Source: an uncultured virus (IMG/VR IMGVR_UViG_3300002835_000124)
Taxonomy: Duplodnaviria > Heunggongvirae > Uroviricota > Caudoviricetes
Strand: one strand, 5' to 3'
Length of the DNA: 20,000 nucleotides
IMG/VR virus record: IMGVR_UViG_3300002835_000124
Numbering within the stretch: the stretch's first letter is position 1; each line of letters starts with the position of its first letter. The notes beneath the pieces are model-generated. The model was not told where the DNA came from and made no database searches. It saw only the letters and a list, made by a program, of their open reading frames with translations. The position numbers were made by a program, and so were the translations under genes. Positions 9,623-19,101 of this stretch are shown one piece after another.

Positions 9623-9649
9623 CTGCTGTGGTTTTTAGACCTTTGTGTA

Positions 9650-10048
9650 TTATTTTTCTATAGACTTACACAGTTTATCAAAATTGGTAACTGAAGAAAT
9701 TTTTAAATTCATTGCAATAGTAATTGCTTCAAGATTTTTATTAGTTATTGCAATTTTTGTATTTTTTTCTGCCTTAATCCAAGAATTAATAGTTGTTTTA
9801 ATTTTACCAGTTGTAGGTTTCTGCTTTGAAGTAAGCATCTTTATGTTTAAATCTATTTCTTTTAACACATCTTGATCACTTGCCAAGCCATCAGCCCAAT
9901 TGGAAATTACTTCTGACTTATAATTTACTTTAATAATTTTACATGAAGCCTTATTGCCCTTAGTATTTAATGATTTTGTTGCAGCATGAGCAGATGCATT
10001 TGGAATTAATAATGCAATTAATAAAGAAGTTATAATTATTTTTTTCAT
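9650..10048 (-). CDS. secreted/exported hypothetical protein
   Basis: MKKIIITSLLIALLIPNASAHA signal peptide; two Cys. Confidence 0.8.
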   Translation of the reverse strand: MKKIIITSLLIALLIPNASAHAATKSLNTKGNKASCKIIKVNYKSEVISNWADGLASDQDVLKEIDLNIKMLTSKQKPTTGKIKTTINSWIKAEKNTKIAITNKNLEAITIAMNLKISSVTNFDKLCKSIEK

Positions 10049-11629: not shown

Positions 11630-12823
11630 ATGGCCATTGTTAATATAGAAGATATCAAATCAAAATTTGAGGCTGGAGATTATCCACGATCATCTGATTA
11701 TATAAACATGATTGATACTCTTGCTGCTATGCCAGATATTTCTGCCAAAGCACCTATTGCTTCCCCCACTTTTACTGGCACAGTAACAATTCCAGCAGGT
11801 TCAGCAATTACTGGTGTTCCTTATCTTGCTACCGCTAATACCTTTACTACATCACCGCAGCAAATCAACGCTGCCACATCTGCTGTTGGCTTAATTATTA
11901 GAGGCAGTGCAACGACTCCAGGCAACCTTCAAGAATGGCAGAATAGTGCGGGAACAGTATTAGGCTCAATAGGACCAACAGGGTCTTTAACTATTGCTTC
12001 AACAACAGCAAATAACACAACAATTTTTAGTGCAAAAGATGCAAATAACAATAAATTAACATCTAGTTCTGATGCTTCTAATAGAACGTTCCTTAACGCA
12101 CAATCAAACCCAGCCGCCACAACTTTGGCTGGAGCATACTTTACTGCTGATGGTTATGAAGAATCCTGGTTTAATATAAATACAAGAAGCAATACCACTG
12201 GTCAAAAATATATGAGATTTGGAAATAAAGGGAATCAATTCTTAGTTCAAAGATTAAATGATGCTGCAAATGTAATAACAAGTACGCCCTTTACAATTGA
12301 AAATACTTCTGCAACTAATAGCATTTATGTTAAATCCACAGGAACTATAATTAATGGAAGTACGGCTCTTGGTCAATTAACTACTTATGCAGCATCTGCA
12401 TCAACCATTGGTTTAGTGATTCGTGGCGCTGCCTCTCAAACTGCTAACTTGCAAGAATGGCAGAACTCTGCTGGAACTATTCTTGCCAGAGTAAATCAAA
12501 ATGGCGCAATAGTTAGTTCAACTGTTGGAGTGTTCGGGTCGCAAAATGTAATAACCAATACCCTATTGTCTTTGTATTCTACAGCAACTATTCAGTCGGG
12601 AATTGTAATTCGTGGCTTTGCGTCACAAACCGCAGACCTTCAACAGTGGCAGAATAGTGATGGTACTAAACTAGCCGCAGTAACTAAAGATGCTTGGTTT
12701 GAACTTGGTTCATCTACCGCCCCTGCTGCTAACTCAGGAGTGGGTGGCTACCTATATGTAGAAGCAGGCGCACTTAAATTCAGAGGCTCATCAGGCACAG
12801 TCACGACCATAGCAAGCGCCTAG
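11630..12823 (+). CDS. tail-fibre/spike-like virion protein with internal repeats
   Basis: 397 aa, rich in A/T/S/G/N; KAPIASPTFTGTVT fibre-type motif; three GxxIRG...LQ(E/Q)WQNSxGT repeats; C-terminal GGYLYVEAGALKFRGSSGTVT. Confidence 0.7.
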   Translation: MAIVNIEDIKSKFEAGDYPRSSDYINMIDTLAAMPDISAKAPIASPTFTGTVTIPAGSAITGVPYLATANTFTTSPQQINAATSAVGLIIRGSATTPGNLQEWQNSAGTVLGSIGPTGSLTIASTTANNTTIFSAKDANNNKLTSSSDASNRTFLNAQSNPAATTLAGAYFTADGYEESWFNINTRSNTTGQKYMRFGNKGNQFLVQRLNDAANVITSTPFTIENTSATNSIYVKSTGTIINGSTALGQLTTYAASASTIGLVIRGAASQTANLQEWQNSAGTILARVNQNGAIVSSTVGVFGSQNVITNTLLSLYSTATIQSGIVIRGFASQTADLQQWQNSDGTKLAAVTKDAWFELGSSTAPAANSGVGGYLYVEAGALKFRGSSGTVTTIASA

Positions 12824-14702: not shown

Positions 14703-14731
14703 ATTCTATCAAAAAAGTGTGGGGAGAGCAA
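14703..14731 (-). promoter_or_regulatory. leaderless promoter overlapping a terminator stem
   Basis: TTGCTC-17-(TGA)TAGAAT-6nt-ATG(14696). Confidence 0.65.
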
Positions 14732-14755
14732 GCCCACCACAAACCCGCTCTCCCC
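14711..14755 (-). terminator. putative intrinsic terminator
   Basis: GGGGAGAGC/GCTCTCCCC 9-bp stem with 17-nt loop, then ACAC-TTTTTT on minus strand. Confidence 0.5.
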
Positions 14756-17132: not shown

Positions 17133-17161
17133 ATTATCCTACAAACTGGGAAAAAAGTCAA
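17133..17161 (-). promoter_or_regulatory. leaderless promoter
   Basis: TTGACT-17-GATAAT-6nt-ATG(17126). Confidence 0.7.
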
Positions 17162-17240
17162 ACATCCGTAATGAGAAAATGGGAAAAATATCATTCCAAC
17201 GTAATAAGATTATAACAAAAATGTTACACTCGGGCACCTG

Positions 17241-17314
17241 CGATCCCAACGGGACTTGAACCCGTAGCCTTTACCGTGACAGGGTAACGATCTAACCAAT
17301 TGATCTATGGGACC
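17241..17314 (-). tRNA. trnD: tRNA-Asp(GUC)
   Basis: GGTCCCA/TGGGATC acceptor, GATC/GATC D-stem, TTACC-CTGTCAC-GGTAA anticodon arm, ACGGG-TTCAAGT-CCCGT T-arm, G73. Confidence 0.95.
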
Positions 17315-17318
17315 AGCG

Positions 17319-17346
17319 GAGCAGTTTGAAATCATGCTCAGGATTT
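17319..17346 (-). ncRNA. candidate H-type pseudoknot motif, copy B
   Basis: AAATC-CT-GAGCA-T-GATTT-CAAAC-TGCTC. Confidence 0.7.
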
Positions 17347-17352
17347 TATTTA

Positions 17353-18369
17353 CTAAACTAGTTGTAGCGTATTACGAACAACAGTTAGTAAGCGATTTTT
17401 TTCTGCATTGATAGCAGGGTCAAATCCAGAAGCAGAAGCAAGAATACTTTCATTGCTACCACCACGAGCAGAACGATACCAGTCAAGACGCTCAGTAAGT
17501 GCATTGAACGCACCCCACGCATTACCAGCAATCATTCCGTTATATTCTCCAGTGTAAATGTCATTGATAACATCTACCTTGTTTTCCCATTTCTTTACAG
17601 CGCCCTTAGTATCTTTATCTGGCTTAGGGTAAGCAGCAAGAATAATGTCATTGAAATCTTTTGCTGAGATTTCTTTTGCAATCATAGCATGTGCCATCTT
17701 ATCAAATTCGTCCATGTAAGCATTGGCAAGACCTAGTGTCTGACGAGCAATAGCCACTTTACCATTTGCAGTTTGAGTATGACGGATTTTGAAAGATTGC
17801 TTGACGCCATCTTTTTTCTTAGTACGATTTAACGCAACATTAAGAGTATTAGCACACACAACACGAACAGGTGTTATGCTTGCTTGAATTGCGATTGAGC
17901 CATCATGAGATGTGTTGATGAGTAAATAAGTCTTTACAACATCTGCCACACCATTAGGGTCTAGCACAGTTTCACGCTCTAATGCAAGAGAGCCAAATAC
18001 TTGACGACCACCCTTTAGAGAGCCAGCAGTTTCCCAACGACCACCGCCATCAAGAATGTTATCACCAAATGAAAATAAATCTTCATTCTGCAATACATGG
18101 TAACGCTCACCAACTACACCCAAAATATCAGTCTGGGTTTTGTCAGTAGGATTTGTACGCACTACATATTGATATTCTTTATCACTAGATAAGTGAGATG
18201 GAATTGGCATATCCTCAAGACGAACATTCCAATTATTAAGATTAGCAGCAACTAACATTTCGCTAGTTGTTTTTTCCTCAGTAAACACAGTGCCAAGACC
18301 ATGCCACGCAGGTTCACGCAATGACGCAAAACTTGCTACGCCATTTTGAGTTTCTAACTCATGAGCCAT
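17353..18369 (-). CDS. DUF932-family phage/plasmid-like protein (TIGR03299 type)
   Basis: MAHELE, REPAWHGLG, ETAGSLKGGRQVF, NTSHDGS, TPVRVVCANTL, IRHT, AWGAFNALTE. Confidence 0.92.
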   Translation of the reverse strand: MAHELETQNGVASFASLREPAWHGLGTVFTEEKTTSEMLVAANLNNWNVRLEDMPIPSHLSSDKEYQYVVRTNPTDKTQTDILGVVGERYHVLQNEDLFSFGDNILDGGGRWETAGSLKGGRQVFGSLALERETVLDPNGVADVVKTYLLINTSHDGSIAIQASITPVRVVCANTLNVALNRTKKKDGVKQSFKIRHTQTANGKVAIARQTLGLANAYMDEFDKMAHAMIAKEISAKDFNDIILAAYPKPDKDTKGAVKKWENKVDVINDIYTGEYNGMIAGNAWGAFNALTERLDWYRSARGGSNESILASASGFDPAINAEKNRLLTVVRNTLQLV

Positions 18370-18424: not shown

Positions 18425-18507
18425 CTAGGATTAGGGAAAATGGTTTAATCTTCTTAATTAGGATAAATCGGACATTTCAGGCCCCCCGAGTTTTTTAAAT
18501 AGAGGTG

Positions 18508-18535
18508 GGGCCTTTTTAAATCATGCCCAGGATCT
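18508..18535 (-). ncRNA. candidate H-type pseudoknot motif, copy C
   Basis: AGATC-CT-GGGCA-T-GATTT-AAAAA-GGCCC. Confidence 0.6.
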
Positions 18536-18556
18536 TTTGATAGCCCCCTATCAAAT

Positions 18557-19071: not shown

Positions 19072-19101
19072 ATTATATTACAGGGTACTGACAAATGTCA
19101 A
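19072..19101 (-). promoter_or_regulatory. consensus sigma70/SigA promoter with TTGTCAG spacer motif
   Basis: TTGACA-TTTGTCAGTACCCTGTAA(18)-TATAAT. Confidence 0.85.

What the first reader, a model, noticed from the sequence alone, without database searches (positions are those of the whole stretch)
17241..17353. DUF932 stop, pseudoknot and tRNA-Asp packed within 40 nt
Seen: pseudoknot copy B starts 6 nt after the DUF932 stop and ends 4 nt (CGCU) before the tRNA-Asp 5' end, with no room for a promoter. Established: RNase P cleaves at tRNA position +1. Inference: tRNA maturation would leave the DUF932 mRNA ending almost exactly at the pseudoknot. This parallels the MALAT1 triple-helix/mascRNA arrangement and favours a 3'-protecting role for the motif.
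Basis: partly seen in the sequence, partly recalled or inferred. Interest (0 to 1): 0.7.

Follow-up and report, generated by a model that had tools for sequence, protein, structure and literature searches.

The report
Gene-end RNA knot before phage tRNA-Asp
A tiny, strongly conserved RNA pseudoknot sits between the stop codon of a phage gene and a tRNA, so that trimming of the tRNA would leave the message ending just behind the knot, which probably shields it from decay, though nobody has tested this.

Summary
On the minus strand the DUF932 gene stops at 17355-17353. A 28-nt H-type pseudoknot runs 17346-17319, then CGCU, then tRNA-Asp(GUC) from 17314. The pseudoknot is real RNA structure: 33 distinct variants keep 98% of pairs, and 5 of 8 pairs show compensatory changes. 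It belongs to an uncatalogued motif (no Rfam match; its letters are in no searchable paper) found in at least 123 viral loci and 5 MAG contigs. Its core starts 5-10 nt after a stop codon in 74 of 97 contexts.

The order DUF932-knot-tRNA is conserved in 78 of 80 close relatives and 43 of 52 diverse DUF932 contexts. The spacer is 3-14 nt, and the tRNA is swapped for Met, Glu or Trp in three cases. In one phage a hammerhead ribozyme replaces the tRNA and would cut 5 nt after the knot. Where no tRNA follows, a T-run follows in 28 of 54 contexts.

All this fits a 3' decay barrier placed just before an RNA end. It remains untested. A promoter-like site inside the DUF932 3' end cannot be excluded, and the fold is not a MALAT1-type triple helix. 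This scan had already noted the same motif in other genomes.

The parts
17353..18369 (-). DUF932-family gene (338 aa); its stop is TAG at 17355-17353, followed by an in-frame TAA at 17352-17350
   Evidence: ORF list; Pfam PF06067 E 1.4e-49; PHROG 1221 E 1.5e-104
17319..17346 (-). Pseudoknot copy B: S1 AAAUC/GAUUU, L1 CU, S2 GAGCA/UGCUC, L2 U, L3 CAAAC
   Evidence: Sequence; own covariance model 55.5 bits; covariation of both helices across 33 variants
17315..17318 (-). CGCU spacer, the predicted 4-nt 3' tail left on the upstream RNA after RNase P cleavage
   Evidence: Sequence; spacers are 3-14 nt in 43 related contexts, with U at -1 in 30 of 43; the cleavage itself is inferred
17240..17314 (-). 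tRNA-Asp (anticodon GUC); no CCA is encoded
   Evidence: ARAGORN; Rfam RF00005 68.5 bits
18396..18424 (-). Sigma-70-like promoter candidate for DUF932 (TTGACA-17-TAAACT, TG before the -10)
   Evidence: Scan, 10 of 12 matches; consensus match only
17395..17423 (-). Weak promoter-like site inside the DUF932 3' end (TTGACC-17-AAAAAT); it could start a knot-tRNA transcript
   Evidence: Scan, 9 of 12; codons TTT-GAC kept in 46 and 44 of 50 distinct homologous 3' ends against 55% and 36% gene-wide; suggestive only
17133..17161 (-). Promoter-like site after the tRNA (TTGACT-17-GATAAT), before the next small ORFs
   Evidence: Scan, 10 of 12
18508..18535 (-). Pseudoknot copy A: AGAUC CU GGGCA U GAUUU AAAAA GGCCC; S2 is compensated relative to copy B
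   Evidence: Repeat family D17; sequence; model 45.9 bits
18539..18552 (-). Small hairpin GAUAG-GGGG-CUAUC between the stop of the 159-aa ORF and copy A
   Evidence: Sequence; similar hairpins lie in L003, L042 and L110
18557..19036 (-). 159-aa ORF of no known family whose stop (TAA 18559-18557) precedes copy A by 23 nt to the core
19072..19101 (-). Perfect consensus promoter-like site (TTGACA-18-TATAAT) heading the unit that ends with copy A
   Evidence: Scan, 12 of 12

Best explanation
The 28-nt element is a genuine H-type RNA pseudoknot. It is one copy of a widespread, uncatalogued 'gene-end' motif of phages. At this locus it is transcribed with DUF932 and tRNA-Asp. RNase P cuts at tRNA position +1, so the upstream RNA would end in the knot plus a 4-nt tail (CGCU). 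The compact knot then acts as a barrier to 3'-to-5' exonucleases, keeping the DUF932 reading frame and its stop codon intact. It sits as close to the stop as a terminating ribosome allows. Shown here: the structure, its conservation, its anchoring to stop codons, and its placement just before tRNAs, one ribozyme and T-runs. Inferred: co-transcription, RNase P cleavage, and protection.
For: Structure: 33 distinct variants have 98.1% of cells paired, against 89.2% in shuffles (0 of 500 as high) and 25-48% in slid controls. Five of 8 pairs carry double changes. The third S1 pair is AU 22, GC 6, UA 3, CG 2, and S1 was not in the search model's structure. In 70 distinct 36-mers the variable S2 pair is A..U (66) or G..C (4) and never mixed.

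Stop anchoring: the stop-to-core distance is 5-10 nt in 74 of 97 unique contexts, with a mode of 6 (31 contexts). Upstream genes come from several unrelated families.

End-making signals just downstream:
- A same-strand tRNA starts 3-14 nt after the knot in 43 of 97 contexts (40 Asp, 1 Met, 1 Glu, 1 Trp; 26 distinct tRNA sequences).
- 78 of the 80 closest DUF932 relatives have the tRNA and 80 of 80 have the knot.
- A variant knot sits after a 15-codon mini-ORF and before a Met-Leu-Leu tRNA cluster in L269.
- A type III hammerhead whose GUC cleavage site ends 5 nt after the knot lies in L083/L154 (33.4 bits, full model).
- A T-run of 4 or more lies within 12 nt in 28 of 54 non-tRNA contexts, against 41 of 695 ORF ends without the knot.

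No terminator-like site lies between the DUF932 stop and the next promoter-like site. Precedent: after RNase P separates secG mRNA from leuU, the mRNA half-life is under 30 s and decay looks exonucleolytic (PMC2241853, passages read).
Against: - No experiment or transcript-end data exist.
- All 43 tRNA junctions lie behind DUF932-like genes. They are therefore largely one inherited arrangement, not 43 independent events.
- The hammerhead case is a single contig and scores below Rfam's gathering score.
- Many copies lie between two genes, 4-19 nt before the next ribosome-binding site, with no visible cleavage signal.
- The Saccharibacteria copies sit roughly 95 nt before a terminator-like hairpin and T-run (sequence read by eye), not at the RNA end.
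- Loop residues are nearly invariant (CU, AAA). This could equally mean recognition by a factor.
- S1 is short and A-U rich, so its stability would depend on tertiary contacts that I could not model.
- A promoter-like site inside DUF932 may give the tRNA its own start.
Confidence: 0.5

Rival explanations
1. The knot is a docking site for a trans-acting factor, either an RNA-binding protein or an endonuclease, phage-encoded or universal. That factor would set where the transcript is cut, or would control decay or translation of the neighbouring genes.
For: Unpaired residues are nearly invariant (L1 CU and the AAA of L3 in 33 of 33 variants). The same 26 letters recur in phages and in MAG contigs labelled as very different phyla. 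Many copies lie at gene-gene junctions without any other cleavage signal.
Against: No protein is seen to co-occur with it. Its spread across phyla rules out a host-specific partner. The invariant loops are also what a triplex-type compact pseudoknot would need for its own fold (inference). Separate end-making devices (tRNA, hammerhead) sit next to it, which would be redundant if it directed cleavage itself.
Confidence: 0.15
2. The knot acts on the ribosome at the stop codon. It would be a roadblock that stops read-through or post-termination sliding into the tRNA or the next gene, or that tunes termination or re-initiation.
For: The distance from stop to core piles up at 6-7 nt (48 of 97). This is the spacing at which frameshift pseudoknots meet the mRNA entry of the ribosome (recalled). 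Even a 15-codon mini-ORF ends 5 nt before a copy. Many copies lie 4-19 nt before the next Shine-Dalgarno sequence.
Against: A lower bound plus genome economy explains the same distribution. In the window the stop TAG is followed at once by TAA, so read-through is already covered. One copy follows a tRNA-like element and not an ORF, and 18 of 97 copies lie 11-60 nt from the stop.
Confidence: 0.12
3. The knot works during transcription as part of a pause, terminator or anti-terminator signal. The S2 hairpin plus a following U-run would end transcripts.
For: T-runs start 2-6 nt after the knot in about half of the non-tRNA contexts (28 of 54 against about 5-6% in controls). The two DUF932 relatives without a tRNA have long T-runs instead. 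Knots sit where transcription units end, just before promoter-like sites.
Against: The window copy has no T-run, and a tRNA 4 nt downstream must be transcribed through it. The S2 stem has only 5 pairs with an 11-nt loop, which is poor for an intrinsic terminator (established rules). The terminator scan does not call it.
Confidence: 0.1
4. The knot serves the tRNA. It would be a structured 5' leader of a knot-tRNA transcript started from a promoter inside DUF932, helping pre-tRNA folding or RNase P recognition.
For: A promoter-like site (TTGACC-17-AAAAAT) lies at 17423-17395. The codons TTT-GAC that make up its -35 are kept in 46 and 44 of 50 distinct homologous 3' ends. tRNA junctions are common (43 of 97). 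ACCA begins 11 of 43 spacers.
Against: 54 of 97 contexts have no tRNA. The window's own four-tRNA cluster has no knot before it. Other codons show similar skew from shared ancestry. The scan finds no more promoter-like sites than shuffles give (7 against 5.6 +/- 2.7).
Confidence: 0.05
5. It is a DNA-level site, either a phage promoter or the binding site of a dimeric protein, and the apparent pairing reflects palindromic half-sites.
For: The sequence is very highly conserved, sits in intergenic regions and has a fixed orientation. GAGCA..TGCTC and ATC..GAT are inverted repeats.
Against: Two interlocked inverted repeats both covary, with all four Watson-Crick pair types at one position, and both variants occur within one genome. 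The element is anchored to the upstream stop codon rather than to the downstream gene. A copy lies behind a bacterial hisS gene.
Confidence: 0.03
6. It is a small ligand-binding riboswitch of the preQ1-I size class.
For: It has the same H-type topology, an A-rich third loop and a size of about 30 nt (recalled for preQ1-I).
Against: No Rfam family matches the knot even at E up to 10. It lies after genes, not in 5' leaders of one pathway. The single junction base (L2) varies U/A/C. The neighbouring genes are unrelated to one another.
Confidence: 0.03

Closest known systems
MALAT1 / MEN-beta 3' end: ENE triple helix followed by the tRNA-like mascRNA (recalled; Rfam RF01684 holds mascRNA-menRNA)
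   Same: The layout is a structured element, then a few bases, then a tRNA-shaped RNA cut by RNase P. The cut makes the 3' end, and the structure is left to guard it.
   Different: The phage element is a 28-nt H-type pseudoknot. It is not a U-rich stem that clamps a genomic A-tract, so the 3' tail is not buried. The downstream RNA is a true tRNA-Asp (68.5 bits); the mascRNA model scores it 19.9 bits against a gathering score of 42.5. There is no homology.
E. coli secG-leuU mRNA-tRNA co-transcript (PMC2241853, passages read)
   Same: It is a bacterial mRNA followed after 14 nt by a tRNA. A single RNase P cut separates the two.
   Different: secG has no protective structure, and its mRNA then decays with a half-life under 30 s. 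The phage places a conserved knot in exactly that gap.
tRNA punctuation of mitochondrial transcripts and plant mitochondrial t-elements (PMC1920247 and others; search listing and start of abstracts only)
   Same: tRNAs or tRNA-like elements are used as cutting marks that define mRNA ends.
   Different: Those are organelle systems. No conserved pseudoknot is described before the tRNA in what I saw.
RNase III processing sites of the phage T7 early mRNA (recalled)
   Same: These are intercistronic structures in a phage early region that leave a folded 3' end on the upstream message.
   Different: They are long hairpins cut by RNase III within the structure. Here the structure is a mini-pseudoknot and the cut, where one can be seen, is made by a neighbouring tRNA or ribozyme.
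Luteovirus-type compact frameshift pseudoknots, about 28 nt (recalled)
   Same: Shared features are size, H-type topology, a 1-2-nt first loop, an A-rich last loop, one junction base, and a position 5-8 nt after the codon in the ribosomal A site.
   Different: The knot follows a stop codon, not a slippery heptamer. No extended reading frame exists: TAG-TAA in the window.
Exoribonuclease-resistant RNAs: flaviviral xrRNA and the coremin motif (PMC10321173, abstract read; others as search listing)
   Same: They are small knotted viral RNAs, usually in 3' UTRs, that stop a processive enzyme mechanically.
   Different: Those block the eukaryotic 5'-to-3' enzyme Xrn1 coming from upstream. Here the proposed enemy is a bacterial 3'-to-5' exonuclease coming from downstream. 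There is no sequence likeness and no Rfam match.

Membership tests
tRNA (Rfam RF00005) | Cloverleaf scoring above the gathering score, with a readable anticodon | tested here: met
   68.5 bits against 29; ARAGORN calls tRNA-Asp with anticodon GTC
DUF932 (Pfam PF06067) | Domain match above the curated cut-off | tested here: met
   169.4 bits against 23, E 1.4e-49
H-type RNA pseudoknot | Two helices in which the loop of the first pairs with sequence 3' of it, both supported by covariation | tested here: met
   S1 is 100% paired with 2 of 3 pairs showing double changes; S2 is 97% paired with 3 of 5; slid controls give 25-48%
MALAT1-type ENE triple helix plus mascRNA | U-rich internal loops clamp a downstream A-rich tract so that the 3' end is buried | tested here: not met
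   The element has no U-rich double loop and no A-tract 3' of it (sequence)
MALAT1-type ENE triple helix plus mascRNA | A tRNA-like RNA lies directly downstream, and its RNase P cleavage makes the 3' end | tested here: inconclusive
   A tRNA starts 4 nt downstream, but cleavage and co-transcription are inferred; the mascRNA model gives 19.9 bits against 42.5
Any Rfam 15 family covering the knot | A covariance-model match on 17319-17346 or 18508-18535 | tested here: not met
   There is no match at gathering scores or at E up to 10, and none on the knots of 20 related loci at E up to 0.1
Intrinsic (Rho-independent) terminator | A G+C-rich stem followed at once by a U-run | tested here: not met
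   No terminator-like site lies in 17133-17353; the knot is followed by CGCU and the tRNA
-1 frameshift or read-through stimulator | A slippery heptamer or leaky stop upstream and an extended frame downstream | tested here: not met
   The upstream sequences differ between contexts, and TAG is followed by an in-frame TAA
preQ1-I riboswitch | A match to RF00522 and a position in the 5' leader of queuosine-related genes | tested here: not met
   No match at E up to 10; the element lies after unrelated genes
Hammerhead ribozyme type III (for the element after the knot in L083/L154) | Conserved core CUGAUGA...GAAA, three stems and a GUC cleavage triplet | tested here: inconclusive
   The alignment covers the full model with the core intact, at 33.4 bits and E 8.7e-06 on 221 nt, but this is below the gathering score of 48.5; stems I and II also appear in the free-energy fold
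xrRNA / coremin | A demonstrated block to a processive exonuclease | not testable with these tools
   This needs enzyme assays

The most novel reading that the evidence does not exclude
The knot is the first exoribonuclease-resistant RNA aimed at bacterial 3'-to-5' decay. It would be a self-sufficient, host-independent 28-nt cap that phages (and a few bacteria) place a ribosome's footprint behind the stop codon. They combine it at will with any device that makes an RNA end: a tRNA cut by RNase P, a self-cleaving hammerhead, or a U-run terminator. Phage early transcripts would then be 'punctuated' into separately stable messages, as in mitochondria and at the MALAT1 locus.
Probability: 0.35. 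Interest if true: 0.85.

Novelty: new variant of a known kind. Interest (0 to 1): 0.7.

Why it matters
Bacterial mRNAs are thought to be guarded at their 3' ends mainly by terminator hairpins. A portable 28-nt pseudoknot that does this job after endonucleolytic cuts would be a new class of stability element. It would also explain why some phage tRNAs sit directly behind protein genes.

It would be a prokaryotic counterpart of the MALAT1/mascRNA arrangement. It would offer a very small part for stabilising synthetic transcripts. The motif is absent from Rfam 15 and from the papers I could search, yet it is common in uncultured phages, so it is also a gap in RNA annotation. Variants in two cultured cyanophages make it testable.

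Tried and rejected
- No whole genome is held for the window. The nearest held record, G001, is an 18-kb fragment with no copy.
- The annotated phage collection has no close relative of the locus; only the tRNA and a piece of DUF932 matched.
- Rfam at gathering scores and at E up to 10 gave nothing for the knot.
- Literature searches found no description of the motif: pseudoknot/phage/tRNA, RNase P/mRNA stability/phage, pseudoknot/exoribonuclease/PNPase, the motif's own letters (0 papers for the 14-mers, and 6 papers holding a 12-mer, all on human or animal topics by title), and DUF932 (13 papers, none naming it in title or abstract).
- A scan for more knot-plus-hammerhead junctions found only the one contig.
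- A nested fold of the region predicts the cloverleaf and an extended acceptor stem but cannot show pseudoknots, and its energy is no better than shuffles (z 0.25).
- Read-through or frameshift was rejected because TAG-TAA is in frame and no shared slippery site exists.
- A riboswitch was rejected because of context and the lack of any Rfam match.
- A DNA palindrome was rejected because of interlocked covariation and both variants occurring in one genome.
- The idea that the knot plus a following ACCA mimics a tRNA acceptor end was considered. ACCA begins only 11 of 43 spacers and the window has CGCU, so I dropped it.
- The synonymous-codon test for an internal promoter was inconclusive, because other codons are skewed too.
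Full report
**1. What is there**

Everything lies on the minus strand.
- An ORF of 338 aa (18369..17353) is a DUF932-family protein (Pfam PF06067, E 1.4e-49; PHROG 1221).
- It ends with TAG at 17355-17353, followed at once by an in-frame TAA.
- Six bases later comes AAAUC-CU-GAGCA-U-GAUUU-CAAAC-UGCUC (17346-17319). AAAUC can pair with GAUUU (S1) and GAGCA with UGCUC (S2), which is an H-type pseudoknot.
- CGCU follows (17318-17315), and then tRNA-Asp with anticodon GUC (17314-17240; ARAGORN; Rfam 68.5 bits).

A second copy (18535-18508) follows the stop of a 159-aa ORF by 23 nt, behind a small hairpin. Its S2 is GGGC/GCCC instead of GAGC/GCUC. A covariance model built later scores these two sites at 55.5 and 45.9 bits; the next best site in the 20-kb window scores 9.7.

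**2. Is it a real RNA structure?**

In the 70 distinct 36-mers, the one S2 pair left free by the pattern is A..U (66) or G..C (4) and never mixed.

That pattern fixed most letters. I therefore built a model (R1, S2 only as structure) and searched 20 whole phage records through their handles. Nineteen had hits, and complete 100-113-kb genomes carry 1-8, clustered within a few kb on one strand.

These hits gave 33 distinct variants (alignment A3). Results on A3 with both helices written as a pseudoknot:

| Measure | Observed | Control |
|---|---|---|
| Cells forming standard pairs | 98.1% | shuffles 89.2 +/- 0.8 (0 of 500 as high); slid partners 25-48% |
| Pairs with changes on both sides | 5 of 8 | - |
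| Cells with double changes | 22 | 2.9 in shuffles |

S1 was not part of the model's structure, yet its third pair is AU 22, GC 6, UA 3, CG 2. The fourth and fifth S1 pairs also change in step in single variants (for example GGCC/GGCC and CGCUC/GAGCG). I did not count them with the tool because insertions in loop 3 shift the alignment.

Invariant in all 33 are C-G at the S1/S2 junction, L1 = CU, three A's at the 3' end of L3, and the C-G in S2. Both variants occur within one genome. The pseudoknot is real. A reading as a duplex-DNA palindrome is much less economical.

**3. Is it known?**

No Rfam 15 family matches the knot, neither at gathering scores nor at E up to 10. There is also no match on 20 related loci at E up to 0.1. 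The motif's letters occur in no paper of the searchable library: 14-mers give 0 papers, and a 12-mer gives 6 papers on human or animal topics by title. Topic searches found no description either.

This scan has met the same motif before in other genomes (notes e1-5981492, e1-5996423, e1-5986425, e1-5992275, e1-5951410). Those notes gave the same provisional reading. I re-tested their main claims here rather than relying on them.

**4. Where it sits**

The 129 matches collapse to 97 unique contexts. The distance from an upstream same-strand stop codon to the core (AUCC) is as follows:

| Distance (nt) | Contexts |
|---|---|
| 0 | 1 |
| 5 | 4 |
| 6 | 31 |
| 7 | 17 |
| 8 | 10 |
| 9 | 7 |
| 10 | 5 |
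| 11-60 (often with an extra hairpin) | 18 |
| no ORF of at least 40 aa | 4 |

So 74 of 97 lie at 5-10 nt. In the window the distance is 8 nt. Stop codons are TAA 66, TAG 25 and TGA 2.

Upstream genes include DUF932, DUF669, a CMD-family protein, a DUF4190 membrane protein, lysine-rich and other small proteins, and a histidyl-tRNA synthetase gene on two MAG contigs labelled Saccharibacteria. In L269 a 15-codon mini-ORF with a strong Shine-Dalgarno sequence ends 5 nt before a variant copy.

The pile-up at 6-7 nt equals the reach of a ribosome whose A site holds the stop codon (recalled: the mRNA entry lies about 11-13 nt from the P site). It is also the spacing of frameshift pseudoknots (recalled). 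The simplest reading is that the knot belongs to the upstream message and sits as close to the stop as it can without being unwound at each termination (inference).

**5. What follows it**

- (a) tRNAs. In 43 of 97 contexts a same-strand tRNA starts 3-14 nt after the knot: 3 nt x3, 4 x12, 5 x7, 6 x2, 7 x10, 8 x3, and 11-14 x6. The tRNAs are 40 Asp(GUC), 1 Met, 1 Glu and 1 Trp, with 26 distinct tRNA sequences, and U stands at -1 in 30 of 43.
- (b) Conserved order. Among the best 80 of 508 viral relatives of the window's DUF932 protein (86-97% identity), 80 of 80 have the knot behind the stop and 78 of 80 have tRNA-Asp directly after it. The other two have long T-runs instead.
- (c) A limit on independence. 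All 43 tRNA junctions lie behind DUF932-like genes, and 9 further DUF932 contexts have the knot without a tRNA. DUF932-knot-tRNA is therefore mostly one inherited block. The independent events are few: three tRNA replacements, the L269 junction with a Met-Leu-Leu cluster, and an odd tRNA-like element 4 nt after the knot in L023, L052 and L094. I read that element by eye, and ARAGORN and Rfam did not call it.
- (d) A ribozyme. In one 65-kb phage (L083 = L124/L154) the knot is followed at once by a type III hammerhead. The alignment covers the full model with the CUGAUGA and GAAA cores intact and stems of 6, 4 and 4 pairs. It scores 33.4 bits (E 0.0019 in 47.6 kb; 8.7e-06 on 221 nt), below the gathering score of 48.5. 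Its GUC cleavage triplet ends 5 nt after the knot, the same distance as the RNase P sites. A pattern scan found no second such contig.
- (e) T-runs. Of the 54 contexts without a tRNA, 28 have a run of at least four T within 12 nt after the knot. Controls give 144 of 2998 windows from the same loci and 41 of 695 ORF ends without a knot at the matching position. By upstream gene the 28 fall into about 11 families.
- (f) No visible end-maker. The rest lie 4-19 nt before the next gene's ribosome-binding site, or before a region rich in TTATCCACA (DnaA-box-like) repeats.

**6. The window's transcription units**

Promoter-like sites on the minus strand lie at:
- 19101-19072 (12 of 12 matches);
- 18424-18396 (10 of 12, before DUF932);
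- 17161-17133 (10 of 12, after the tRNA).

Each knot sits at the end of such a unit, and no terminator-like site lies between the DUF932 stop and the next promoter-like site. These are consensus matches only. In the 1.8-kb scan the count (7) is no higher than in shuffles (5.6 +/- 2.7).

The scan also lists a weaker site inside the DUF932 3' end (17423-17395, TTGACC-17-AAAAAT). Its -35 is made by the codons of a conserved G-F-D-P motif. TTT is kept in 46 and GAC in 44 of 50 distinct homologous 3' ends, although these codons make up 55% and 36% gene-wide. Other codons are skewed as well (GGA 32 of 50 against 18%), so shared ancestry may explain this.

A start there would still run through the knot, and it would not stop DUF932 transcripts from reaching the tRNA.

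**7. How it most likely works**

Established: RNase P cuts at tRNA +1. In E. coli the secG-leuU co-transcript (14-nt gap) is separated by one RNase P cut, after which secG mRNA has a half-life under 30 s. No endonuclease mutant stabilises it, which the authors read as exonucleolytic decay (PMC2241853, passages read).

Inference: the phage faces the same problem and fills the gap with a compact knot. After the cut, the DUF932 RNA would end in the knot plus CGCU. Tails of 3-8 nt (37 of 43 contexts) are shorter than the single-stranded overhang that RNase R, RNase II and PNPase need to engage (recalled, not checked here). A hammerhead end would in addition carry a 2',3'-cyclic phosphate (established chemistry).

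The invariant CU and AAA loops fit a triplex-type pseudoknot like the luteoviral ones (recalled). Such a fold is mechanically strong in spite of the short A-U-rich S1. I could not model this.

I put 0.5 on this mechanism. Not shown are co-transcription, the cut, and protection.

**8. Rivals**

| Rival | Probability |
|---|---|
| Factor-docking site | 0.15 |
| Ribosome roadblock or termination device | 0.12 |
| Transcription pause or terminator element | 0.10 |
| Leader serving the tRNA | 0.05 |
| DNA site | 0.03 |
| Riboswitch | 0.03 |

The near-identity of the 26-nt core across phages and MAG contigs labelled Atribacterota, Aminicenantales, Polynucleobacter and Saccharibacteria means that any partner must be universal, or that the fold is self-sufficient. 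Bin labels of MAG contigs may be wrong. The 3-kb Polynucleobacter contig is simply a DUF932-knot-tRNA-Asp phage fragment.

**9. Comparison with known systems**

The MALAT1/mascRNA parallel is one of layout, not of kind. There is no triple helix that buries the end, the downstream RNA is a genuine tRNA, and there is no homology. Closer in biology are:
- secG-leuU, which has the same junction but unprotected;
- tRNA punctuation and plant mitochondrial t-elements (listing only);
- the T7 RNase III sites (recalled).

Closest in shape are luteoviral frameshift knots. Closest in proposed action are xrRNAs and the coremin motif, which stop Xrn1 from the 5' side (PMC10321173, abstract).

**10. Verdict**

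The motif is a new RNA family by the catalogues and papers I could search. The concept is a new variant of known 3'-end protection. Variants in the cultured cyanophages S-EIVl (stop TAG, 6 nt, knot; 19.8 bits; one C.A mismatch in S2) and PaV-LD (12.1 bits; compensated by eye) offer a route to the bench.

Noticed in passing
window 17143-17208: Two tandem 33-nt repeats (73% alike) lie after the tRNA. Each carries ..TTACG.. and TTTTTCCCA, and the second overlaps the TTGACT -35 of the promoter-like site at 17161-17133. Similar TTACG...TTGACA..TTTTCCCC strings recur after knots in L049, L110, L008 and L030. They are probably a family of early promoters with an upstream element.
   Followed up: partly
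L017, L019, L020, L022, L028, L041, L060, L080 (first 130 nt after the knot): The knot is followed by AAAATTTTT and then several TTATCCACA / TGTGATAA repeats (DnaA-box-like). This is possibly a phage replication origin next to a transcription-unit end.
   Followed up: no
L023, L052, L094 (from 4 nt after the knot): An odd tRNA-like element has an acceptor stem GCCACC/GGTGGC, a good T arm (GGTTCGATTCCC) and a CACGC/GCGTG stem with a 20-nt loop in place of the D and anticodon arms. Neither ARAGORN nor Rfam calls it.
   Followed up: partly
L154 535-655 (minus strand): A tRNA-like element of about 117 nt (acceptor ACGCAGA/TCTGCGT, T arm GAGGTTCGAATCCTC) has a large insertion. ARAGORN does not call it. 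A second knot follows it by 6 nt, so here the knot stands behind an RNA gene, not a stop codon.
   Followed up: partly
L269 395-495 (minus strand): A 15-codon mini-ORF with a strong Shine-Dalgarno sequence (AAAGGAGG) ends 5 nt before a variant knot. A tRNA-Met, Leu, Leu cluster follows 5 nt later. It looks like a leader peptide, knot and tRNA operon.
   Followed up: partly
L183, L184 (MAG contigs labelled Saccharibacteria / Nanosynbacter): The identical 26-nt core lies 9 nt after the stop of a histidyl-tRNA synthetase gene (Pfam tRNA-synt_His, E 1.7e-35). It sits roughly 95 nt before a terminator-like hairpin with a T-run, on a 175-kb contig.
   Followed up: partly
window 18480-18556; L001, L003, L042, L110: Copy A and its relatives are flanked by a hairpin with a GGGG(G) loop upstream and by CCCC / CTCGGGGGG stretches downstream. 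These could pair with each other, so this subtype may be part of a larger structure.
   Followed up: no
window 17395-17423 and homologous DUF932 3' ends: Synonymous codon choice keeps TTTGAC at the conserved G-F-D-P motif (TTT 46 of 50, GAC 44 of 50 distinct sequences). This makes a -35-like TTGAC 17 nt before AAAAAT.
   Followed up: partly
window 11925-12692 (plus strand, inside ORF 11630-12823): There are three diverged direct repeats of 47-88 nt (68-74% alike), that is, an internally repeated protein of no PHROG family.
   Followed up: no
window 14721-14755 (minus strand): A 16-pair G+C-rich hairpin followed by ACACTTTTTT is the only strong terminator-like site in the small-gene region.
   Followed up: no
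window 9623-9652 (minus strand): The four-tRNA cluster (Met, Asn, Leu, Lys) starts 27 nt after an ORF's stop with no knot in between. The knot is therefore not a general tRNA leader in this phage.
   Followed up: yes
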